This document shows, one piece after another, positions 3,051 to 45,658 of a DNA stretch of 64,000 bases. The position numbers and the translations under genes are program-made. The stretch is from an uncultured Thermoplasmatales archaeon (GTDB lineage: Archaea; Thermoplasmatota; E2; DHVEG-1). Below the pieces are notes generated by a model. It was not told the origin of the DNA. It did not search any database and saw only the letters and a program-made list of their open reading frames with translations. Position 1 is the first letter of the stretch, and each line of letters opens with the position of its first letter. The stretch lies in NCBI GenBank assembly GCA_964527715.1, contig CAZGOD010000006.1, positions 8,060-72,059 on the forward strand, in the 5' to 3' direction.

Positions 3051-3932
3051 ATGGTAAAAATAAGGAGACCAGCAGTAGCAGGACAATTCTACGATGCATC
3101 AGATACAAACCTAATACAAACACTAAAAGAAAGCTTCCTAGACAACCGCGGACCAAAAACCCTACCTGAAATCAAAAAAGGAAACAAAAACATCAAAGGA
3201 GTAGTCGTACCACATGCAGGCTACATATACTCAGGCGCAATAGCCGCCCACTCATACCACACAATAGCAGATAACGGATTCGCTGACACATTCATCATAC
3301 TAGGACCAAACCACACCGGTATCGGATCAGGAGTATCTATAATGACAGAAGGAGTCTGGCAAACACCACTAGGCGAAACACCAATAAACAACGAACTAGC
3401 AGAACTACTATGCACCGGCATGATAAACAAAGACGAAAAAGCACATAGATACGAACACAGCATCGAAGTACAAATACCCTTCCTACAATACTCAGCTAAC
3501 AACAAAGCATTCGACTTCGTACCAATATGCATGGGAATACAAGACTACTACACCTCAATAAAAGTAGGAGAAATCATAGCAGAAGCAATCAAAAAAACAA
3601 ATAAAAAAACCATAATAGTAGCAAGCAGCGACTTCTCCCACGCTGGTTTCAACTACACGAGCATGCCACCACCAGGTATGAGAGTCGACCGATACGCAGA
3701 AAAACAAGACCAACTCGCCATCGAAGAAATACTTAGACTAGACCCCAAAGGACTAATAGATACAGTCCAACAAAAAAACATCACAATGTGCGGATACGGA
3801 CCAGTAGCAGCCATGATCACAGCAACTAAACTACAAGGAGCAAAAACAGCAGAACTCCTTAAATACAGCACATCATACGACGTACAACCAAGCGACTCAT
3901 GCGTAGGATACGGATCAATAATAATATACTAA
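3051..3932 (+). CDS. MEMO1-family protein (AmmeMemoRadiSam system protein B)
   Basis: N-terminus RRPAVAGQFY, VVPHAGY.YSG, ILGPNH and C-terminal Cys/His typical of the Memo/UPF0103 family. Confidence 0.8.
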   Translation: MVKIRRPAVAGQFYDASDTNLIQTLKESFLDNRGPKTLPEIKKGNKNIKGVVVPHAGYIYSGAIAAHSYHTIADNGFADTFIILGPNHTGIGSGVSIMTEGVWQTPLGETPINNELAELLCTGMINKDEKAHRYEHSIEVQIPFLQYSANNKAFDFVPICMGIQDYYTSIKVGEIIAEAIKKTNKKTIIVASSDFSHAGFNYTSMPPPGMRVDRYAEKQDQLAIEEILRLDPKGLIDTVQQKNITMCGYGPVAAMITATKLQGAKTAELLKYSTSYDVQPSDSCVGYGSIIIY

Positions 3933-37582: not shown

Positions 37583-37939
37583 ATGCCATCATATTCTGCT
37601 CATATAAGATTAGGAGATCATCCTGGAGATTTACATTTGCATTTTTACTATAATAAAAAAAACAGTAGAAAGTTAATAGGTAAATATCGAATACCATCAT
37701 TAACACCTTTGCCAGGAACGGAACATGATTTAAATAATAATGAAATAGAGTTTCTAAATGAATGGTTAATTCAAAAAAAACAAATTAATAAATTACAGCA
37801 TGCACTGGAAGAAACACTTTTTAATATGGATGAAGTCGGGAAAAAAGTAATAGAAAACATCAAAGAAGGTACTGTTGAAAAACGTAAAGGAACTACTTTT
37901 GTCACAGTACGTTTTCCAGTCATTAAACGACTAAAGTAA
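37583..37939 (+). CDS. hypothetical protein (first gene inside the island)
   Basis: 118-aa ORF, no recognisable domain. Confidence 0.3.
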   Translation: MPSYSAHIRLGDHPGDLHLHFYYNKKNSRKLIGKYRIPSLTPLPGTEHDLNNNEIEFLNEWLIQKKQINKLQHALEETLFNMDEVGKKVIENIKEGTVEKRKGTTFVTVRFPVIKRLK

Positions 37940-37944
37940 ATCAA

Positions 37945-38475
37945 TCATTTAAATCCTAATACAACCATTGTTTTATCTAAAATAAAACAACAATTTACTA
38001 AAACTTCCTTATTTCCGCTATGATCCATCATATATGTTTTAGAACCATGAAAAAGCCTATTACGGACTTTTTCTATTAAAAGAATAAGTTCAATAAACGC
38101 AGATTTATATTTTTCTTCTCTGATGTACTTCTGGTATCTCTTTATCTTATTTCCATAATATTCTAAACTCATATTATTTATTATTTTATCAATTTGTTTT
38201 TTATTATTTTTTAAAAATAATTCTGCCTTTTTTTCTCCAAATTCCTCTCTTTTTAAATGACTTAAAACAGATTTCACTTTTGCAGGTTCTCCAGCATTAA
38301 CATCTTTTTTTCCAGTTTTAGGATTTATATACCTTTTTCCATAGTATACATTAAAAGCAATCCAATAAAAAATCATTTTATTAAAATATTTTTTTTCATC
38401 TCTTGCAGCTTTTAACCAACTGTTAACTCTATTTTTATCTTCGTTTAATAGATTATCAAGTGGCATTTTTCTCAC
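37945..38475 (-). CDS. HEPN-like protein (Rx4H motif), putative RNase/abortive-infection partner of the RM enzyme
   Basis: C-terminal RNRLFHG fits the HEPN Rx4-6H motif. Start overlaps the stop of the upstream RM gene (ATGA at 38472-38475). Confidence 0.4.
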   Translation of the reverse strand: MRKMPLDNLLNEDKNRVNSWLKAARDEKKYFNKMIFYWIAFNVYYGKRYINPKTGKKDVNAGEPAKVKSVLSHLKREEFGEKKAELFLKNNKKQIDKIINNMSLEYYGNKIKRYQKYIREEKYKSAFIELILLIEKVRNRLFHGSKTYMMDHSGNKEVLVNCCFILDKTMVVLGFK

Positions 38476-41400
38476 ACATTATCTATTATGTCCTCAAAAA
38501 TTCTTATTTCTTCGTTTGTTAAGTCATATAATTTGTATGTGGCCATATTGATCTCTTTATCAATATCCAATATTCGGTCTTTTAGAAAAATTAACTCTTT
38601 TTTATATTCATCAAAATAATCTTCCCATTCATCTTGTTCTTTCAATGTTAATGTTATTTTTTGTTTAGATAACTCTTTTAAAAATTCGTCAAAGTTTAAC
38701 TCATAAAAATTCTCTAATCTTTTTGTTATTTTTTCTAAATTTAAATTAGAGAAGACTCTTGCAATAAATCTATTTATCTTTTCATGAAATTCTTTATTTA
38801 ACTTAGTGATTTCAGTTACTTTATTTGCTAATGTATCACTATTACTAATATTTGGTAATGGAATAGGATTTAGGTATATCTCTTTAAATCTTAAATTTGA
38901 ATGAGTTCTTGTCGACTCATAGAGAAGACTGTAAATTTTGTCGAATATTTTTGAATTAAAAAATGCAGCAAATGACTTAACATTAATATTATCCGACTTT
39001 GATTCTACAATTGTGACAGAATTTAATAAGCCAATTTTTTTATAATTAAGTATAATATTCGCTCTATTTTTTGTTGACAATTCTCTTACTAATACAATTT
39101 TATCAGTATCAAAAACTTTTATTTCTAAGGGGTCAATCCAATATTCTGGAGGTTTATCATAATAACACCATATAGACTTACCTGTAAAAACAGGGATGCG
39201 GCCTGAGATCTTTTCATCTTTTAATTTGTTCCTAATTCCTGTTATACCTGCCCCAGCTGTAAATTTAAAAAAGTTATCAATTTTTGTATCTATTTTTTTT
39301 AATTTATCTAAAGCAATCTCTTCTTTCTTATCCTTTGGAAAAAAGAAAATATTGGCAGGTAACAAATTATAATCATTGATTTCGATTTTTTTATCTACTA
39401 ATAATCTTGAAATCTTTTTTATTTTTAAATAATTCCCATATTTTATTGTATTATTATTTGATTTTTTATCTATAATTATTATCGATGTTTCAACTGGAGT
39501 ATCCTCAAAAACACCCGAACCAAAATTAATAATATTATTGATTAATTTTGTATCAATTAAATATTTTCTAATAAGTTTTCCATAGCTTGCTGAAAAGAAT
39601 TTATTTGATGAGATAAAACCTAAAATACCTTTATCATGTAGTAATGATAATCCTTTTTCAATAAATAGTGTTGATAAATCAAATCCAGATTTTACTAAAT
39701 CAAATTGATTATTTATGAAAGCTGTTTCTTCTTCTGAAAATTCTCTACTACGGACATAAGGAGGGTTTCCAATAATTATATCAAATTTAAATGGAAATTC
39801 TGATTCCCAGCTAAAAGACTTGTCTCCTCCAACTTCTTTCTCATGTATTAATGAATTACCACATTTTATATTACTTGAAAGATCGATTAACTTTTTGTTC
39901 TTTTTTGCTATTTTAAAAAATAAACTTAATTTTGTTATTTCAACAGATTCTTCATTAATATCGACTCCATATATGTTATTCTCAATGATTTCTCTTGCTT
40001 CGTCTTCTTCTATAAATTTTGTAAAAGTTAATTGTTCTTTTCTTATTTTTTTAGATTTTCTTTTTGCTAAAGGAGATACTTGTTTCTGAGAATATTCTCC
40101 TATTGATTCCTTAAAAATTTGAACTTCTTTATGAATTTCAAGTAATATCTCAACAGCTTTTATTAGGAAAGATCCTGAGCCGCAAGCAGGATCAAGTATT
40201 TTTAAATTATTGAATTTTTCTTCAAGTTCTTCGATATTATTCGAATATTCTTTAATTAATTTATCAACATTATTTACTCCCTTTTTAGATAAGTAAGGTA
40301 TTATTGTATTTCTACAAATATAATCGGTTACAAAATCTGGTGTATAAAAAACTCCTTCTTTTCTTCTTCTTGAGGGTCTTTGTTCCTGTAGTTCTTCTAA
40401 ATCTGAGATAGACTGTTCAAAGATATGGCCAAGAATATTAACACTTACTTCTGTATTAAAATCAAATGAAGCCATATACAATAAATTCAAAACAATTGGG
40501 TTAACATTGCCATTATGAATTTTTAAAATTGCTTTAGATTTTTCATCGAGTTCAATTTCTTTTTTAATTTTTGAATTTTGATAAATTTCATTAAAATAAG
40601 ATTTTTTTCTAAAATCTTTAAAATAAATTGAAGTCGGTATCGTTTCTTTGAAAAGCCCTCCATTAAAACCAAAAATATTATGTCTTTTTGAACCTTCATT
40701 TAGGTTTTGGAAAATACTTTTAATAAGATTACAAACAAGATTTGTATTCTCTGAGAAAATACTATCTACATTCATTAGGTTTAAAACTTTATCTTCAAAG
40801 AGTCTTTGTTTGAGTTTATCTGTATCTTCTGCAAAAAATACAAACATTAATCTATTTAGAAAAATCTGTGCATAGTGAATTGATTCTTCTTTATTTGCAC
40901 CATTATCCTGAAATTCCCTGATAAGCATCAGTCGTGTTTCATGAAACAACTTATAAAATTCCTTAGTGAACTCTCTTTCTTCAATAACTGACTTATCATA
41001 TAGGGTTTCAATAAATTCTTTATCAATTATACTTTCTTTAGAAAAAATTGCTATAAATTCCTTTAATTTTTCTGCATCATCTTTAATACTTAAAAAATCA
41101 AAAAAATGATATTTGCTATATCCTTTTGATTTATCAATAAGTACAAAATCTCGATAATTTGTACATATTCCATATTTGATAGTATCAATTCGACCCATGT
41201 TGTCCCAGGTTTGTTTAAAAGGAGTGCTTTGTTCTGCTCTATATCCTGTTTGTTTGCTAAAAAGATCTTTTGATTCGCCTTTTACTTCTATACATAGAAT
41301 TGTTTTACCAATTGAATCTTTAAAAGTAAACTCTATATTTGCTTTTTCGTAATCAAGATCTTCTCTTATAGAATATCCAAGAATGTCTCTTAATACATAA

Positions 41401-41555
41401 ATTGCAAATTTGAAATAATTAGATCTCTCTTTTTCAAGAGCACCTGATTCTAATAATTGAATCCATTCGTTAGCATTCTTCTTTTGTTTTTGACTTATTT
41501 TAACATTAGAACATAAACGTTTAATTGTCCTTTCATTGAAAAGTTCAGTATCCAT
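38472..41555 (-). CDS. Type IIG restriction endonuclease/N6-adenine methyltransferase fusion (MmeI-like)
   Basis: 1027 aa. N-terminal PD-(D/E)xK nuclease domain with D-x9-E-x-K spacing (FKDSIGKTILCIEVK), as in MmeI. MTase motif I LDPACGSGSFL, motif IV GNPPY. C-terminal target-recognition region. Confidence 0.8.
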   Translation of the reverse strand: MDTELFNERTIKRLCSNVKISQKQKKNANEWIQLLESGALEKERSNYFKFAIYVLRDILGYSIREDLDYEKANIEFTFKDSIGKTILCIEVKGESKDLFSKQTGYRAEQSTPFKQTWDNMGRIDTIKYGICTNYRDFVLIDKSKGYSKYHFFDFLSIKDDAEKLKEFIAIFSKESIIDKEFIETLYDKSVIEEREFTKEFYKLFHETRLMLIREFQDNGANKEESIHYAQIFLNRLMFVFFAEDTDKLKQRLFEDKVLNLMNVDSIFSENTNLVCNLIKSIFQNLNEGSKRHNIFGFNGGLFKETIPTSIYFKDFRKKSYFNEIYQNSKIKKEIELDEKSKAILKIHNGNVNPIVLNLLYMASFDFNTEVSVNILGHIFEQSISDLEELQEQRPSRRRKEGVFYTPDFVTDYICRNTIIPYLSKKGVNNVDKLIKEYSNNIEELEEKFNNLKILDPACGSGSFLIKAVEILLEIHKEVQIFKESIGEYSQKQVSPLAKRKSKKIRKEQLTFTKFIEEDEAREIIENNIYGVDINEESVEITKLSLFFKIAKKNKKLIDLSSNIKCGNSLIHEKEVGGDKSFSWESEFPFKFDIIIGNPPYVRSREFSEEETAFINNQFDLVKSGFDLSTLFIEKGLSLLHDKGILGFISSNKFFSASYGKLIRKYLIDTKLINNIINFGSGVFEDTPVETSIIIIDKKSNNNTIKYGNYLKIKKISRLLVDKKIEINDYNLLPANIFFFPKDKKEEIALDKLKKIDTKIDNFFKFTAGAGITGIRNKLKDEKISGRIPVFTGKSIWCYYDKPPEYWIDPLEIKVFDTDKIVLVRELSTKNRANIILNYKKIGLLNSVTIVESKSDNINVKSFAAFFNSKIFDKIYSLLYESTRTHSNLRFKEIYLNPIPLPNISNSDTLANKVTEITKLNKEFHEKINRFIARVFSNLNLEKITKRLENFYELNFDEFLKELSKQKITLTLKEQDEWEDYFDEYKKELIFLKDRILDIDKEINMATYKLYDLTNEEIRIFEDIIDNV

Positions 41556-41663
41556 TTTTTCTGTATTCTAAAAGCAAAATGCTTCATTTATACATTTCTT
41601 TTTTGGATACAAAACTTTAAATTATTATAAATTATACCAATGGTATAACCAATGGTGTAATAA

Positions 41664-41894
41664 ATGAAAGTTTTAGATAAACGTTGGGGCGAAGTTACAA
41701 TTAAGCAACAAGGAGAAAAAAAGAATAAATTTGATAAAACAAAATCATTTAGTATAGCAAAAACAAATAATGAATATTCTATAGAAGAATTAAAAGACAT
41801 ACTTGAGATTACGGTCAACCTAACAGAAAAATATAATTACATTGGGTTAAAAAACATATTAAATTCCATAAAAAACAAGGAGAAAGAATTATGA
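41664..41894 (+). CDS. small hypothetical protein (first gene of the divergent operon)
   Basis: 76-aa ORF whose stop overlaps the next gene's start. Confidence 0.25.
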   Translation: MKVLDKRWGEVTIKQQGEKKNKFDKTKSFSIAKTNNEYSIEELKDILEITVNLTEKYNYIGLKNILNSIKNKEKEL

Positions 41895-42436
41895 GTTATG
41901 CTGAAGACATCGAAATAATTGAAAAATATCTAATCTTACTACTTGGGGTAGTAGATAGACCAATTCCATCAAAAATCCATTTACAAAAAGAATTATTTTT
42001 ATTGTCTAAAGCCAATCCGAAAATTGCAGATTTTATTGACTATGAAAAACATTACAAAGGCCCCTACTCTGCTGAATTAGATGATGTTTCTAAAGAACCA
42101 TTGTTCTATACAAATGCATTTGAGTTTGATAAATATCAAAGACTTTTTTTAACTTCTGAAGGAAAAAAAATATTCAATAAAATAATTGAAGAAAATTCAG
42201 ATAACACGAAATTCAAGGAGTTATTAAAATTAATTAAGATGACTCGTGAACTTTACGATAAATTAAGCAAGAATGAATTGTTATTTTTAGTATATGCAAC
42301 TTATAATGATTATACGGAAAAATCTGATATATCTGAGCATCTCCTTTCAAAAATTAGTCGAAAAAAATTTTCAAAGAAATTACTTGAAAAAGGACTAATA
42401 TCTGAGAGAAGAGCAAAAGAACTGGTAGGAGCATAA
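41891..42436 (+). CDS. Panacea (DUF4065) domain protein, putative PanA-type antitoxin
   Basis: IHLQKELFLLSKA and YEKHYKGPYSAEL match the two conserved Panacea blocks (..KLQKLLYY.. and F.AW..GPV.P.LY). Confidence 0.6.
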   Translation: MSYAEDIEIIEKYLILLLGVVDRPIPSKIHLQKELFLLSKANPKIADFIDYEKHYKGPYSAELDDVSKEPLFYTNAFEFDKYQRLFLTSEGKKIFNKIIEENSDNTKFKELLKLIKMTRELYDKLSKNELLFLVYATYNDYTEKSDISEHLLSKISRKKFSKKLLEKGLISERRAKELVGA

Positions 42437-42981
42437 TGTACACATATTCACTGATACCTGATAGTACATTCTTTATTTGTTATCTTGATGACATTGAAAA
42501 ACCTGAATATTTAAAGAAAATAATTAAAAACAATAAATTTAATATTTTTATAGGTCAGATCATCAACAATGAAATTAAAAAATCCAACAATTACAAATCA
42601 TTGGAAAAAGACTTCGGATCTAAAATAAAAATATTTGAATATTACCAATATGGTGAAATTCTTCGACCATTATTTTCGAGAGAAGAGATTATAAAAGGAG
42701 AACATGAGGTTATTGTAATTGCATTTATTTTATTTTCAGAAGATGAAAAATTTATTGCCATTTTAGATGATATAGCTCCAAGGAAATTTATTAAAAACAA
42801 TTTTCCTCAAATATATGAATCTATAGAATGGACTGTGGGATTTACAAAAAATTGTTATTATAAACATAAAATTTTTTCAAAAGAGGAAACATTAATTATT
42901 TTAGAATTGATACAAAATTCTAAGTTCAGAATAGATCCTGAAGTAATCTGTGGATTAATATATGAGGTAAGGTGTAGTTGA
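42436..42981 (+). CDS. uncharacterised 181-aa protein overlapping the Panacea gene (candidate toxin, possibly PIN-like)
   Basis: Start ATG overlaps the Panacea gene stop (TAATG). Acidic residues (D9, E, DD) spaced loosely like a PIN fold. No confident family assignment. Confidence 0.3.
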   Translation: MYTYSLIPDSTFFICYLDDIEKPEYLKKIIKNNKFNIFIGQIINNEIKKSNNYKSLEKDFGSKIKIFEYYQYGEILRPLFSREEIIKGEHEVIVIAFILFSEDEKFIAILDDIAPRKFIKNNFPQIYESIEWTVGFTKNCYYKHKIFSKEETLIILELIQNSKFRIDPEVICGLIYEVRCS

Positions 42982-42982
42982 T

Positions 42983-44197
42983 TTGGGAAAAAATATACCT
43001 GTAAAAGAGTCGATAAGAGATAAAGACTCAGAGTATAATATTAAGAGATTTAAATTTGGCCATATAGATGTTGAAAGACCAATAAAAGTATTAGATGCGG
43101 GTAGCGGAAAAATAAACAAAAAAATATTTGAAGGACAGAAAAAAAACTTTGAAAATGTTATTTTCGAATCTTCAAAATTTTTAAAACCAGATTCAATAAA
43201 AAAAGTCTTAGAAGAATCTGATGATTCAACAATAAAAAAACGAATGGGATTAAGAGAGTGGATAACCGAATATCCATATACTATAACTCATACTTTTGAT
43301 TTTAATCCGTATGATTATTTTAAAAATTTAGAAAAAATTGCAGGCTATTTTTATTACTATTATCAATTTTCAGATACCATACTTTTAGTTCCAAACATTA
43401 AACTGGAAAAGGAAGGAAAACAAATTATTTCAATCGAAGAATATCTTAGATATATTGAAGAAGCTTATTCAATATTAAATCGTAAAAATCATAAAAAAAT
43501 ATTTGTCCCTCTATCTTTGAGATTTGGTATGAACGACATAGAAAATCTTGCAAGGAAATATGAAAAAAATGATTTTTTTAATATTTGGATAGATTTTGAA
43601 GGTAGTTCTGTAGGCAGTAGAACAAAGATAGCCAGAATAAGAAGATTTTTTTCTGTTTTTGATGAATTGGAAAAAGTTGATGATATTATTACTTATTCAA
43701 CTAATATGAGACGTGAAATAACTTCCAATACTAAAAGTAATGAAAGTCCCTCATCAGATGTTTTAACATCTGTTATTGGCGCTAATATTATTGGAGTTAA
43801 TAGAGAACCTCAGGGGTTTGGAGAAAAAATAGATAAAAATCTTCCTGAAGAAGAAATACAAAAGATAAAAGAAAAGAGAAAAAAGAAAATGGAAGAGATG
43901 AAAAAACATAAAGCAAGATATTTTGATCCTGAATCATATTATTATTATAAAATCATTAATTCAAAGTTAAAACAAGAAGAGAAAAATAGACTCATGAACA
44001 TGCAACAAAATATCGTAAATAACTCTTTTTTACTTGATAATGAATTTAATTCTCAAGCTGAACATTTTCTTGAAAAAGGTGATTATTCAATAAAGAAATA
44101 TATCTGTGATAAATCGATGATAAAGGAATATAAGAAGGGTTATTTAATCGATGATTTGTTTGGAGAAAAATCTAAAAAGAAACTTAATTGGTTTTAA
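42983..44197 (+). CDS. uncharacterised 404-aa protein (third gene of the Panacea operon)
   Basis: Begins 2 nt after the preceding stop. No P-loop, no Cys cluster, no recognisable catalytic motif. Lys/Glu-rich linker in the middle. Confidence 0.3.
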   Translation: MGKNIPVKESIRDKDSEYNIKRFKFGHIDVERPIKVLDAGSGKINKKIFEGQKKNFENVIFESSKFLKPDSIKKVLEESDDSTIKKRMGLREWITEYPYTITHTFDFNPYDYFKNLEKIAGYFYYYYQFSDTILLVPNIKLEKEGKQIISIEEYLRYIEEAYSILNRKNHKKIFVPLSLRFGMNDIENLARKYEKNDFFNIWIDFEGSSVGSRTKIARIRRFFSVFDELEKVDDIITYSTNMRREITSNTKSNESPSSDVLTSVIGANIIGVNREPQGFGEKIDKNLPEEEIQKIKEKRKKKMEEMKKHKARYFDPESYYYYKIINSKLKQEEKNRLMNMQQNIVNNSFLLDNEFNSQAEHFLEKGDYSIKKYICDKSMIKEYKKGYLIDDLFGEKSKKKLNWF

Positions 44198-44199
44198 TC

Positions 44200-44394
44200 T
44201 TATTTTTTTGTAATTGGTTTAACATTGATTACAAGTTCACCGTTTTCTGCTTTTAAAGTCCAATCAAGCTTGTCTCCTTCTTTAAGATTAAAATGACTCA
44301 TAATCCCTGCAGGAACGGTTGTTCTATAGGAGTTTACTATTGTTGAGGCTTTTGCAATAGTTGTTGTAAAACCCATATTTATCATAATGTGCAT
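44200..44394 (-). CDS. AbrB/MazE/SpoVT-family swapped-hairpin DNA-binding protein
   Basis: TTVPAGIMSHFNLKEGDKLDW matches the AbrB/SpoVT looped-hinge-helix consensus. 64 aa. Confidence 0.55.
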   Translation of the reverse strand: MHIMINMGFTTTIAKASTIVNSYRTTVPAGIMSHFNLKEGDKLDWTLKAENGELVINVKPITKK

Positions 44395-44647
44395 GTTATT
44401 TGTTGTATATATTTCTTACTACTTTTTATACTATCTTCTATCCTACCTAAAAGTTTATATACTAAGATGCATTTACCCTTATAAAGGTAGATTAAAAGGT
44501 AGTAAATAAACAAAAGAAATATAAAACAAATATTTGCTGCACCCCCTCTTGATGGAGGGATAATCCAATTACATCAATAAGTTTATTAAAAGCCACCTGC
44601 AGCAAACTACCTTAGATACCTACTTAGAGTTAAATGGAAAAGGTAGT

Positions 44648-45658
44648 ATGGAAAATATTTCTCCAGAAGACCCAATAATAAAAATTTCATACCCTCAAGA
44701 CTGGGTTTCATACAACAGTGCACAAACCCAAGAGAAAATTCTATTTTTAGAATTATTATATGAAATAACCTCCCAAGTACCACAACCAAAATACAAAGGA
44801 AATGGTCGCCCACCTGCAAATATTGGAGAAATGATTTTTTCATGTTGCTTAAAACATTATCTTGATTTTAGCAGTAGGCGAAGCCAATCAGATATTAAAT
44901 TAGCACAACAACTTGGATATTTAGATCATGCTCCACATTTCAACACCGTTTTAAAATATCTCAGAAAACCTGAATTAAAATTAATATTAACCAAATTGAT
45001 TCAAATATCTGCCTTACCTCTAAAAGAAATCGAGCAAGATTTCGCATCAGATGCATCTGGATTTAGTACTGTTATGACCTTTGCTTGGAATAAATGCAAC
45101 AGAAGCCACTTTGATAGGAAGAAATTCAAAAAAGCTCATGTAATGTGCGGTGTTAAAACCAATGTTATAACCCATATTGAAGTTACTGATGGTTATGTTC
45201 ACGATACTTTGATGTTCGAAAATTTAGTTAAAAAAACTGCAATAAATTTTGATATGAGAGAGGTTAGTGCAGATAAAGGATATTCAACTGAGAAGAATTT
45301 AGATATAGTTACTAAACATGGTGCCATCCCTTTTATTGTTTTTAAAAAGAATGCAAGAATATCAGAAGATAAAATGTTAATTTGGAGAATAATGCTTAGA
45401 TATTTTAAGAACCATAAAGAAGATTTTATGGAGCATTATCATAAACGCTCAAACGTTGAAACTGTTTTTAGTATGATGAAACGAAAATTTGGTTCTCATG
45501 TTAGAGCTAAAAACTCTATCGCTCAAGAAAATGAAGTTTTATGTAAGGCTCTTTGTCATAACATTGTTGTCCTTATTCATGAGATGTTTGAGCTCGGAAT
45601 TACTTTAGATCTATCAAAATTGATGGAACAGGAGTTTATGTGCAAAATTAAAGAGTAA
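44648..45658 (+). CDS. IS5-family DDE transposase
   Basis: GNGRPP motif and a D..D..E triad context (ASDASGF, SADKGYS, NVETVFSMMKRKFG) typical of DDE_Tnp_1/IS5-group transposases. Confidence 0.85.
   Translation: MENISPEDPIIKISYPQDWVSYNSAQTQEKILFLELLYEITSQVPQPKYKGNGRPPANIGEMIFSCCLKHYLDFSSRRSQSDIKLAQQLGYLDHAPHFNTVLKYLRKPELKLILTKLIQISALPLKEIEQDFASDASGFSTVMTFAWNKCNRSHFDRKKFKKAHVMCGVKTNVITHIEVTDGYVHDTLMFENLVKKTAINFDMREVSADKGYSTEKNLDIVTKHGAIPFIVFKKNARISEDKMLIWRIMLRYFKNHKEDFMEHYHKRSNVETVFSMMKRKFGSHVRAKNSIAQENEVLCKALCHNIVVLIHEMFELGITLDLSKLMEQEFMCKIKE

What the first reader, a model, noticed from the sequence alone, without database searches (positions are those of the whole stretch)
41664..44197. 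Divergent four-gene operon around a Panacea (DUF4065) protein: candidate new PanA-toxin-like system
Four ORFs on the plus strand are tightly packed: 76 aa, then an overlap into the 181-aa Panacea protein, then a TAATG overlap into a 181-aa unknown, then a 2-nt gap to a 404-aa unknown. The second protein has both conserved Panacea blocks (IHLQKELFLL; YEKHYKGPYSAEL). Panacea domains are known as highly promiscuous antitoxins that pair with unrelated toxin domains. Neither the overlapping 181-aa protein (acidic residues loosely PIN-like) nor the 404-aa protein matches any family I recognise. Either could be a new PanT-type toxin or effector. The operon is transcribed divergently from the RM/HEPN pair inside the same mobile island, typical of defence-island organisation.
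Basis: partly seen in the sequence, partly recalled or inferred. Interest (0 to 1): 0.7.

Follow-up and report, generated by a model that had tools for sequence, protein, structure and literature searches.

The report
Archaeal PIN, antitoxin-like, TGT-fold gene triad
The flagged operon is one copy of a rare, strictly conserved and apparently undescribed three-gene module of archaea, in which an antitoxin-like protein, a PIN nuclease and a protein with the fold of nucleobase-exchanging enzymes always occur together, probably as a mobile toxin-antitoxin or defence system.

Summary
The four tightly packed plus-strand ORFs are real.

- **ORF3 (181 aa):** a COG2405/DUF3368-type PIN nuclease whose acidic residues are 94-100% conserved.

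ORF2, ORF3 and ORF4 lie in the same order, overlapping or abutting, in 95 of 98 judgeable loci. These span most archaeal phyla, a few bacterial MAGs and one virus-like contig. The order holds even where ORF4 identity falls to about 25-30%, so the unit is an obligate triad and not a two-gene PanA/PanT pair.

ORF1 is a real gene but specific to this lineage. It fills a variable slot for small DNA-binding proteins. With a convergent AbrB gene it frames cassettes of very different sequence.

The family is rare (248 clusters among 1.84 billion representatives). It lies near RM genes, transposases or integrases in a minority of loci.

Most likely it is a tripartite toxin-antitoxin or defence module. 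The role of the TGT-fold protein is unresolved. I found no prior description.

The parts
41633..41659 (+). Putative operator. It is the palindrome TATACC-AAT-GGTATA (41633-41647) followed by a second partial copy (ACCAATGGTGTA, 41648-41659), and it ends 5 nt upstream of the ORF1 start codon. It lies in the 108-nt divergent intergenic region shared with the RM gene.
   Evidence: The sequence was read. ACCAATGGT occurs twice here, against 0.6 matches expected in the whole window. The same TATACC-N3-GGTATA motif, with a second copy, lies just upstream of the ORF1 homologues in L086 and L074, where the flanks are otherwise unrelated. Binding by any protein is inferred and was not tested.
41664..41894 (+). 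ORF1, 76 aa. It is a small protein of an uncharacterised family that occupies the variable 'small regulator' slot upstream of the cassette. It is translationally coupled to ORF2 through an ATGA overlap.
   Evidence: Homologues lie directly upstream of ORF2 in L086 (70% identity) and L074 (51% identity). It has no significant Pfam, NCBIfam or PHROG match. In the closest cassette relatives, L056 and L057, the reading frame is broken. In other loci the slot holds MazE/AbrB-like, DUF2080, RHH or winged-helix proteins.
41891..42436 (+). ORF2, 181 aa. It is an antitoxin-like protein with a winged-helix core plus a helical C-terminal half, resembling the DarT-binding C-terminal domain of DarG (Panacea-like). 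It ends in a short SHOCT/UPF0175-like tail.
42436..42981 (+). ORF3, 181 aa. It is a COG2405/DUF3368-type PIN-domain nuclease and the predicted effector or toxin.
   Evidence: Homologues carry PF11848 and are named 'predicted nucleic acid-binding protein' by their sources. 9 of 35 family members hit DUF3368, best E 8e-5. In 94 sequences D9 is 94% conserved, E46, E89, D111 and D112 are 100% acidic, E91 is 98% acidic and T133 is 96% conserved. The window protein itself gives no Pfam hit. Its fold was not modelled.
42983..44197 (+). ORF4, 404 aa. It is a TGT-superfamily (beta/alpha)8 barrel with an N-terminal beta-sheet lid and a C-terminal helical extension. It has no zinc site and its biochemical role is unknown.
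44200..44394 (-). A convergent AbrB/MazE-type small DNA-binding protein of 64 aa, starting 2 nt after the ORF4 stop codon. In this lineage it is part of the conserved frame around the cassette.
   Evidence: Pfam MazE_antitoxin 1.2e-6 (above the gathering cut-off), with NCBIfam PrlF and AbrB hits. Homologues of 80-85% identity lie in the same convergent position, 5-7 nt after ORF4, in L086, L087 and L083. Each is followed by an IS4-family transposase, as in the window.

Best explanation
The locus is one copy of a horizontally mobile, mostly archaeal, obligate three-gene module that works like a tripartite toxin-antitoxin or abortive-infection system.

- ORF3, a PIN nuclease with an intact acidic active site, is the effector.
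- ORF2 is a stand-alone relative of the toxin-binding C-terminal domain of DarG (Panacea-like). It holds the effector, or both enzymes, inactive by direct binding, and may also act as the sensor.
- ORF4, a TGT-fold protein that has lost the zinc subdomain, is the indispensable third partner. It most plausibly recognises or modifies a nucleobase or nucleic acid (tRNA or DNA), or a partner protein. In that way it would either give the nuclease its specificity or supply the trigger.
- Small DNA-binding proteins that vary between lineages autoregulate transcription. In the window these are ORF1 upstream and the convergent AbrB, probably acting through the conserved palindrome in front of ORF1.

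Shown here: the gene content, the folds, the conserved residues, the strict synteny, the patchy distribution and the mobile or defence contexts.

Inferred: toxicity of the PIN protein, neutralisation by ORF2, any activity of ORF4, a defence function, and operator binding.
For: - **Synteny.** ORF2, ORF3 and ORF4 are on the same strand, overlapping or abutting, in 95 of 98 judgeable loci. This includes 23 of 23 loci of a subfamily whose proteins are only 26-30% identical to the window's.
- **ORF3.** It belongs to the DUF3368/COG2405 PIN family, which is predicted to act as a VapC-like toxin with UPF0175 as its exclusive partner (PMC5499597 and PMC2701414). Distant ORF2 homologues carry UPF0175. 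The PIN acidic residues are 94-100% conserved.
- **ORF4.** It has the TGT fold, and its conserved polar residues lie on or next to the predicted barrel strands and following loops.
- **Regulator slot.** It holds AbrB/MazE, DUF2080, RHH and winged-helix proteins. An operator-like palindrome is conserved in three loci.
- **Distribution.** The family is rare and patchy: 248 clusters among 1.84 billion representatives. It spans many archaeal phyla, a few bacterial MAGs and one virus-like contig.
- **Neighbours.** They include type IIG, type I and type II RM genes, MADS components, transposases and integrases.
Against: - No experiment or co-fold supports any of the proposed interactions.
- ORF2 fails the Pfam Panacea model.
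- The window's ORF3 gives no Pfam hit itself, and its fold was not modelled.
- ORF4 lacks detectable TGT sequence motifs and the zinc site. Only one near-invariant Asp (D259) and E62 are conserved, and D204 is replaced by N in whole sub-branches. It may therefore not be a transglycosylase at all.
- Many loci lie among housekeeping genes.
- In L053 an ORF2-like gene and an ORF4-like gene occur without a visible PIN gene. This does not fit a model in which the PIN protein is the central toxin.
- Classical VapBC pairs use the AbrB or RHH protein itself as the antitoxin, so the small upstream proteins could be the real PIN antitoxins.
Confidence: 0.5

Rival explanations
1. A modification-restriction logic, similar to the Dpd system. 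ORF4 would exchange guanine for a 7-deazaguanine in host DNA or tRNA as a self-mark, for example using preQ0, which archaea already make for archaeosine. The PIN nuclease would cut unmarked nucleic acid. ORF2 would control or assemble the two.
For: The five best structural matches of ORF4 are all TGT-superfamily members, including the DNA-guanine transglycosylase DpdA. DpdA acts in an RM-like system (PMC10164549). [quoted passage not shown] The cassette lies next to other RM genes in the window and in 10 of 128 loci.
Against: There is no zinc site, no PF01702 signal and no recognisable set of three conserved Asp residues. No DpdB-like ATPase and no recurrent preQ0-synthesis genes appear among the 136 nearest neighbours; one canonical TGT lies next to the cassette in L027 only. 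PIN domains of the VapC type are typically RNases. This model does not need an antitoxin-like ORF2.
Confidence: 0.2
2. ORF4 is the real toxin and ORF2 is its direct antitoxin, analogous to DarT and the DarG C-terminal domain. For example, ORF4 could act as a glycosylase or base-exchange enzyme that damages tRNA or DNA. The PIN protein would be a second effector or an accessory RNase.
For: ORF2 most resembles the domain of DarG that binds and inhibits the nucleic-acid-modifying toxin DarT (PMC8832971). In the distant locus L053, an ORF2-like protein with a UPF0175 HTH lies divergently next to a remote ORF4 homologue, and no PIN gene is detectable. ORF4 is the most conserved and the largest of the three proteins.
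Against: PIN co-occurs in 95 of 98 loci and its active-site residues are strictly conserved. The L053 contig is only 3 kb, so a PIN gene could lie beyond its ends. ORF4 lacks the canonical catalytic signature. ORF4 is last in the operon and separated from ORF2 by the PIN gene.
Confidence: 0.15
3. A protein-directed role similar to that of Cap10. ORF4 would bind or process a nucleobase-modified partner protein (ORF2 or the PIN protein) rather than nucleic acid, and so license or restrain the effector.
Against: There is no QueC-like Cap9 or CD-NTase in the operon or among recurrent neighbours. ORF4 scores higher against true TGTs than against Cap10. No conserved N-terminal modification motif was looked for or seen.
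Confidence: 0.08
4. One reading: a two-gene PanA/PanT pair, with ORF2 paired to either ORF3 or ORF4, and the remaining gene an unrelated passenger.
For: ORF2 is antitoxin-like. Accessory third genes do occur in some PanAT loci (PMC8832971).
Against: Accessory third genes in PanAT loci are present in only a small fraction of genomes. Here all three genes co-occur in 95 of 98 loci across very deep divergence. The Pfam Panacea model does not match ORF2 or its relatives.
Confidence: 0.04
5. A housekeeping RNA-processing or RNA-modification module of archaea, combining a TGT-like modifier, a PIN RNase and an RNA-binding winged-helix protein, with no role in conflict.
For: Many loci lie among housekeeping genes such as tRNA synthetases and ribosomal proteins. 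TGT and PIN families both act on tRNA or rRNA.
Against: The module is very rare and patchy. It was found in 48 of 185,579 species genomes scanned and forms 248 clusters among 1.84 billion representatives. It occurs in a low-GC island here, next to integrases and transposases, and on a virus-like contig. It has TA-type small regulators.
Confidence: 0.03

Closest known systems
VapBC-type PIN toxin-antitoxin modules of the COG2405 (DUF3368) / UPF0175 (COG2886) class
   Same: ORF3 belongs to, or lies next to, the DUF3368/COG2405 PIN family, with conserved acidic residues. Distant ORF2 homologues carry a genuine UPF0175 C-terminus, which is the exclusive partner family of COG2405. The operon is compact, translationally coupled and mobile.
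   Different: The protein upstream of the PIN gene is 181 aa with a DarG-CTD/Panacea-like body, not an approximately 80-aa UPF0175 protein. A 400-aa TGT-fold protein is an obligate third member. The DNA-binding function appears to be delegated to separate, variable small proteins.
PanA/PanT (Panacea, DUF4065) toxin-antitoxin systems
   Same: ORF2 shares the hLQKxxF...GPYS motif pattern with the DarG C-terminal domain. One homologue is labelled Panacea by UniRef. A Panacea-annotated phage protein appears among the weak structural hits. The ORF2 architecture, a globular core plus terminal helices, resembles that of multidomain PanAs.
   Different: The defining Pfam model does not match ORF2 or its relatives. 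The system has three genes, and the third is invariably present, whereas third genes in PanAT loci are sporadic. The family is almost entirely archaeal.
DarTG (the C-terminal DarT-binding domain of DarG)
   Different: ORF2 has no macrodomain, and the locus has no DarT. The NCBIfam DarG score (18.8 bits) is far below the family cut-off of 250.
TGT superfamily: bacterial and archaeal tRNA-guanine transglycosylases and the DNA transglycosylase DpdA of the Dpd system
   Different: There is no sequence-level similarity. There is no CxCxxC...H zinc site, and the three Asp residues that are invariant in TGT and DpdA cannot be recognised. There is no DpdB partner. ORF4 is instead always paired with a PIN protein and an antitoxin-like protein.
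Cap10 of type IV CBASS (a TGT-fold protein that binds the deazaguanylated N-terminus of CdnD)
   Same: Both are TGT-fold proteins recruited into a conflict-type operon, and both have lost the zinc site.
   Different: No Cap9/QueC, CD-NTase or CBASS effector is present. The structural score is lower than against true TGTs. The partners are entirely different.
Tripartite TA systems with a separate regulator (omega-epsilon-zeta, paaR-paaA-parE)
   Same: A small DNA-binding protein (RHH, AbrB or winged helix) is encoded upstream of an antitoxin-like gene and an effector gene. The paaR-paaA-parE example is cited. The omega-epsilon-zeta comparison comes from my own knowledge.
   Different: The regulator slot is variable and absent in about half of the loci by my criterion. 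The invariant third component here is a 400-aa TGT-fold protein, which has no counterpart in those systems.

Membership tests
Panacea / DUF4065 (PF13274) PanA antitoxins | A significant match to the Pfam DUF4065 HMM, which is the criterion used to define PanA in PMC8832971. | tested here: not met
   ORF2 gives no hit at E<=1. No DUF4065 appears among the families listed for 46 family members. Ten members, including the UniRef 'Panacea'-labelled P0018, give no hit at E<=10.
Panacea / DUF4065 (PF13274) PanA antitoxins | A Panacea-like globular fold. | tested here: inconclusive
   In BFVD, one Panacea-annotated phage protein appears at rank 7 (E 0.78, probability 0.69, TM 0.42/0.56), and no hit reaches E<=0.001. 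UniRef names the 54%-identical P0018 a 'SocA-like Panacea domain-containing protein'. The AFDB library was unavailable.
Panacea / DUF4065 (PF13274) PanA antitoxins | Encoded within 100 nt of a conserved putative toxin, in an operon of two or at most three genes. | tested here: met
   ORF2 overlaps or abuts the PIN gene in 95 of 98 loci. However, the third gene is always present, unlike the sporadic accessory genes of PanAT loci.
Panacea / DUF4065 (PF13274) PanA antitoxins | Neutralises its cognate toxin. | not testable with these tools
   This needs toxicity and neutralisation assays or co-folding.
DarG antitoxin | A C-terminal DarT-binding domain fold. | tested here: met
DarG antitoxin | An N-terminal macrodomain and a DarT partner, with a score above the NCBIfam equivalog cut-off. 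| tested here: not met
   ORF2 is 181 aa and has no macrodomain. NF048014 scores 18.8 bits against a cut-off of 250. No DarT hit was found for any gene of the operon.
COG2405 / DUF3368 PIN (VapC-like) | A match to PF11848 (DUF3368). | tested here: inconclusive
   The window's ORF3 gives no hit at E<=1. 9 of 35 family members match (best E 8e-5), and 3 database homologues carry a precomputed PF11848 annotation.
COG2405 / DUF3368 PIN (VapC-like) | Conserved acidic active-site residues of the PIN fold. | tested here: met
   D9 is 94% conserved. E46, E89, D111 and D112 are 100% acidic, E91 is 98% acidic and T133 is 96% conserved across 94 sequences.
COG2405 / DUF3368 PIN (VapC-like) | Partnered with a UPF0175 (COG2886) protein. 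| tested here: inconclusive
   Only the distant ORF2 relatives P0093 and P0094 hit UPF0175 (6.7e-8). ORF2's own tail aligns with the first helix of that motif and gives weak SHOCT_2 hits.
TGT / DpdA transglycosylase superfamily | A TGT-type (beta/alpha)8 barrel. | tested here: met
TGT / DpdA transglycosylase superfamily | Sequence-profile membership (PF01702). | tested here: not met
   None of 50 family members hit it at E<=10. The PDB profile search found nothing. hhalign against the genuine TGT of L027 gives probability 0.3%.
TGT / DpdA transglycosylase superfamily | Three invariant active-site Asp residues: the general acid/base, the base-recognition residue and the nucleophile (PMC10164549). 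| tested here: inconclusive
   Only D259 (96%) is a near-invariant Asp. E62 (99%), E245 and E354 are conserved Glu residues. D204 becomes N in whole subfamilies. Residue-by-residue superposition was not possible with these tools.
TGT / DpdA transglycosylase superfamily | A structural Zn2+ site (CxCxxC...H). | tested here: not met
   No alignment column reaches 40% Cys/His except 192 (65%) and H309 (92%), so there is no Cys cluster.
Cap10 (type IV CBASS) | Co-encoded with a CD-NTase and the QueC-like Cap9. | tested here: not met
   The operon genes are ORF1-4 only. No such families appear among the recurrent neighbours.

The most novel reading that the evidence does not exclude
The triad is a previously unrecognised class of archaeal immune or addiction system. 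In it a zinc-less TGT-fold protein uses nucleobase chemistry to control a PIN nuclease through a DarG-CTD/Panacea-like adaptor. The chemistry could be base exchange or excision on tRNA or DNA, or recognition of a 7-deazaguanine-type ligand or adduct. This would be a third independent recruitment of the queuosine/archaeosine machinery into conflict systems, after Dpd and type IV CBASS, and the first that is native to archaea.
Probability: 0.2. Interest if true: 0.85.

Novelty: new variant of a known kind. Interest (0 to 1): 0.66.

Why it matters
If the model holds, several things follow.

1. It defines a compact, deeply conserved three-component system. It is found in Asgard archaea, Thermococci, Archaeoglobi, Nitrososphaerota, Bathyarchaeia, methanogens and many DPANN lineages. 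Defence and TA biology in these groups is barely explored experimentally.
2. It adds a new functional context for the TGT fold. So far that fold is known from tRNA modification, from the Dpd DNA-modification system and from CBASS protein deazaguanylation.
3. It shows that profile-defined censuses of Panacea antitoxins miss a whole archaeal branch. That branch is related to the DarG toxin-binding domain.
4. The conserved regulatory frame (ORF1 and AbrB) around cassettes that share only 26-30% identity suggests either cassette swapping or very fast effector evolution. Both are features of interest for immune-system evolution.

The system can be tested directly, because the cultured Thermococcus litoralis DSM 5473 carries a complete copy.

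Tried and rejected
- **Pfam, NCBIfam, PHROG and PADLOC scans of the four ORFs.**
- **Sequence searches against the PDB.** The single ORF2 sequence and the ORF2, ORF3 and ORF4 profiles were tried. The only relevant match was a weak DarG alignment for ORF2 (E 0.8).
- **hhalign of the ORF4 profile against a genuine TGT found next to the cassette in L027.** Probability was 0.3%, so active-site residues could not be mapped by sequence.
- **ORF1 as a non-gene.** ORF1 had no phmmer hits in the 48 genome loci and its frame is broken in L056 and L057, so at first I treated it as probably not a gene. I withdrew this when homologues turned up in L086 and L074.
- **ORF3 as a later insertion.** ORF3 had only 15 database hits against about 90-100 for ORF2 and ORF4, so I suspected a later insertion into an ORF2-ORF4 pair. 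Profile searches of the loci found ORF3 in 95 of 98, so I rejected this. The low hit count came from the word-index search.
- **Rosetta-stone fusions.** I looked for them among 354 retrieved proteins and all locus ORFs and found none.
- **Terminal inverted repeats delimiting a transposon around the cassette and IS4 gene.** Only AT-rich chance matches appeared.
- **Viral origin.** Only one IMG/VR contig carries a divergent cassette, so the module is mainly cellular.
- **Rfam scan of the window.** It found only two distant tRNAs and no known RNA in the locus.
- **AFDB Foldseek for ORF2.** The library was unavailable.
- **Literature searches.** I searched for YwgA, for DpdA/PIN/archaea, for archaeal dark matter with arCOG terms, for TGT-like/PIN, and for transglycosylase/Panacea. 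None described this cassette. The held library is incomplete, so this absence is not proof.


Full report
**Observation.** The four plus-strand ORFs exist as described: ORF1 41664-41894 (76 aa), ORF2 41891-42436 (181 aa), ORF3 42436-42981 (181 aa) and ORF4 42983-44197 (404 aa, TTG start). ORF1 and ORF2 overlap by 4 nt, ORF2 and ORF3 overlap by 1 nt, and 1 nt separates ORF3 from ORF4. They lie in a low-GC island of about 25% GC, against about 37% in the flanks. The island also contains:
- a divergent type IIG RM gene (38472-41555; Eco57I 3.6e-39, PADLOC REase_MTase_IIG 1.6e-74);
- a small gene overlapping the end of that RM gene (37945-38475);
- a convergent AbrB/MazE-type gene (44200-44394);
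- an IS4-family transposase (44648-45658).

**ORF2.** Pfam DUF4065 matches neither ORF2, nor, as far as listed, 46 aligned relatives, nor ten relatives scanned at E<=10.
- The only profile signals are weak matches to the C-terminal part of DarG (PADLOC 1.8e-6; NCBIfam 8e-4, far below the cut-off) and to the candidate PDC-M19A.
- A profile-to-PDB alignment places the LQKxxF and GPYS motifs on the same DarG segment.
- UniRef labels a 54%-identical homologue as a 'SocA-like Panacea domain-containing protein'. One Panacea-annotated phage protein appears among weak BFVD hits.
- I therefore describe ORF2 as a DarG-CTD-like, Panacea-like antitoxin-type protein that fails formal Panacea membership.
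- Its C-terminal tail (LLxKGxITxxRYxEL) aligns with the first helix of the UPF0175 motif. The distant relatives P0093 and P0094 carry that motif in full.

**ORF3.** Its homologues carry PF11848 (DUF3368) and are called 'predicted nucleic acid-binding protein' by their sources. 9 of 35 relatives hit DUF3368.
- Across 94 distinct sequences, D9 is 94% conserved, E46, E89, D111 and D112 are 100% acidic, and T133 is 96% conserved. An active PIN nuclease is predicted.
- COG2405/DUF3368 is a predicted VapC-like toxin family, and UPF0175 is found exclusively with it (PMC5499597; PMC2701414).

**ORF4.** It has no sequence-level family. The AF2 model is excellent (pLDDT 92.9, pTM 0.91).
- The model has three N-terminal strands. 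These are consistent with the beta-sheet lid that TGTs have and DpdA lacks.
- The defining catalytic signature is not evident, however. TGT and DpdA share three invariant Asp residues and a zinc site. In ORF4 relatives no Cys/His cluster is conserved, D204 is replaced by N in whole sub-branches, and the constant polar set is E62, K171, E245, D259, H309, R312, Y319, Y321, E354 and K377.
- hhalign against a genuine TGT gave probability 0.3%, so I could not map residues.
- Cap10 is a precedent for a zinc-less TGT fold that binds a protein rather than nucleic acid.

**The real unit.**
- A scan of one genome per species found 48 loci.
  - Most are archaeal: Asgard, Thermococci, Archaeoglobi, Thermoplasmata, Methanosarcinales, Methanoregulaceae, Nitrososphaerota, Bathyarchaeia and many DPANN lineages.
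  - Three are MAGs labelled bacterial.
- A metagenome scan seeded with a distant 430-460-aa ORF4 subfamily gave 80 more loci.
- Profile searches show ORF2, ORF3 and ORF4 on one strand, overlapping or abutting, in 95 of 98 loci with enough upstream DNA to judge. The breakdown is 40 of 43, 23 of 23 and 32 of 32. The three exceptions are fragmentary ORF4 copies.
- The order holds even where the proteins are only 26-30% identical to the window's.
- One IMG/VR contig with a terminase-like gene carries a divergent full cassette.
- The ORF4 family is rare: 248 clusters at 50% identity among 1.84 billion representatives.
- This is an obligate triad, not a PanA/PanT pair with an occasional accessory gene (compare).

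**Variable periphery.**
- The slot directly upstream of ORF2 holds unrelated small DNA-binding-type proteins. These include MazE/AbrB-like (6), DUF2080 (5), RHH/NikA-like and winged-helix proteins, and about half of the loci have none by my criterion.
- ORF1 belongs to a further family in this slot, with homologues in the same position in L086 (70% identity) and L074 (51%). In the closest cassette relatives its frame is broken.
- A palindrome, TATACC-N3-GGTATA, with a second partial copy, lies just upstream of the ORF1 start in all three loci. It is a plausible operator.
- The convergent AbrB gene is 80-85% identical in L086, L087 and L083, and lies in the same position. Each time an IS4-family transposase of 43-48% identity follows. 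So the regulatory frame is far better conserved than the cassette inside it. I could not explain this.

**Context.**
- Homologues of the window's type IIG enzyme lie within the flanks of 10 of 128 loci, and IS4 homologues in another 10.
- The nearest neighbours also include type I and type II methyltransferases, MADS components and integrases. Many other loci are in housekeeping surroundings.
- No preQ0-synthesis genes, DpdB, Cap9 or CD-NTase recur. One locus, L027, has a canonical TGT next door.

**Mechanism.**
- The best-supported reading is a mobile tripartite TA-like or abortive-infection module (confidence about 0.5).
  - The PIN nuclease is the effector.
  - ORF2 is the neutraliser and possibly the sensor. 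For comparison, in multidomain PanAs the terminal helices neutralise the toxin and the globular core may sense a trigger.
  - ORF4 is a nucleobase- or nucleic-acid-directed, or partner-directed, third component.
  - Lineage-specific small proteins act as transcriptional regulators.
- The rivals are:
  - a Dpd-like modification-restriction logic;
  - ORF4 as the true toxin with ORF2 as a DarG-like inhibitor, hinted at by locus L053, where an ORF2-like/UPF0175 gene pairs with a remote ORF4 homologue and no PIN gene is visible;
  - a Cap10-like protein-directed role;
  - a housekeeping role, which the rarity and patchiness make unlikely.
- Every functional step is inferred.

**Novelty.**
- The domains belong to known kinds. 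The invariant combination of a PIN protein, a DarG-CTD/Panacea-like protein and a zinc-less TGT-fold protein was not found in the papers most likely to describe it or in PADLOC.
- The held library is incomplete, so I class the finding as a new variant of a known kind (a TA or defence module) rather than as categorically new.
- Thermococcus litoralis DSM 5473 carries a full copy (ORF2-like 2e-64, PIN 5e-67, ORF4-like 1e-135). The predictions can therefore be tested in a cultured organism.

Noticed in passing
window 41664-41894 and 44200-45658, compared with L086 173-4390, L087 4840-8806 and L083 180-2593: ORF1 (70% identity) and the convergent AbrB gene (80-85% identity) are far more conserved between loci than the three core genes they flank (26-30% identity). 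A related IS4 transposase (43-48% identity) follows each time. This suggests either cassette replacement inside a conserved frame or very fast evolution of the core genes.
   Followed up: partly
window 41633-41659; L086 about 141-170; L074 about 3106-3135: A conserved palindrome, TATACC-N3-GGTATA, with a second partial copy, lies immediately upstream of ORF1 and its homologues. It is a putative operator within the divergent promoter region shared with the RM gene.
   Followed up: partly
window 37945-38475 (-): A 176-aa gene overlaps the stop of the type IIG RM gene by 4 nt. It contains an R-x4-H-like motif (RNRLFH) and gives only a weak hit to a Cas13d HEPN-region model (E 0.004), with no Pfam HEPN hit.
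   Followed up: no
window 37583-37939 (+): A 118-aa ORF at the left edge of the low-GC island has no significant match in any family library.
   Followed up: no
L052 6009-8376 (IMG/VR UViG_3300002733_000190): A 14-kb virus-like contig with a terminase-like gene carries a divergent but complete ORF2-ORF3-ORF4 cassette. Several ORF4 motifs are altered in it (WVDAKG, TNMRN).
   Followed up: partly
L053 414-2221: A distant ORF2 relative with a genuine UPF0175 C-terminus lies divergently next to a remote ORF4 homologue (hhalign probability 94.5%). No PIN gene is detectable on this 3-kb contig.
   Followed up: partly
L027 7398-8615 (-): A canonical bacterial-type TGT, with the TDSGGFQ, AFDEC, FDCV and CxCxxC motifs, lies directly upstream of the cassette and divergent from it in a Nanoarchaeota MAG. 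This is the only such case among 136 neighbours and may be a coincidence.
   Followed up: no
L001 5629-8922 (+): In this archaeal MAG a 1097-aa type IIG RM gene is on the same strand as the cassette and overlaps the ORF2 start by 29 nt. This suggests co-transcription of the RM gene and the triad. In the window the RM gene is divergent.
   Followed up: no
BFVD hits to the ORF2 model: The best viral structural neighbours of ORF2 are uncharacterised proteins of Sulfolobus viruses (SSV4, SEV1, SPV2, SIRV9; probability 0.95-1.0, TM about 0.5). This hints that archaeal viruses encode the same fold, possibly as counter-defence proteins or regulators.
   Followed up: no
L138 (Thermococcus litoralis DSM 5473, CP006670.1 1747409-1760674): The complete cassette (L138 4864-7266) lies within a run of small hypothetical genes, next to an IS240-type transposase and an integrase fragment. 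This is probably an integrated element in a cultured strain.
   Followed up: partly
L050 11-1309 (-): In one of the closest relatives, a phage-type integrase lies immediately upstream of an RHH gene followed by the cassette.
   Followed up: no
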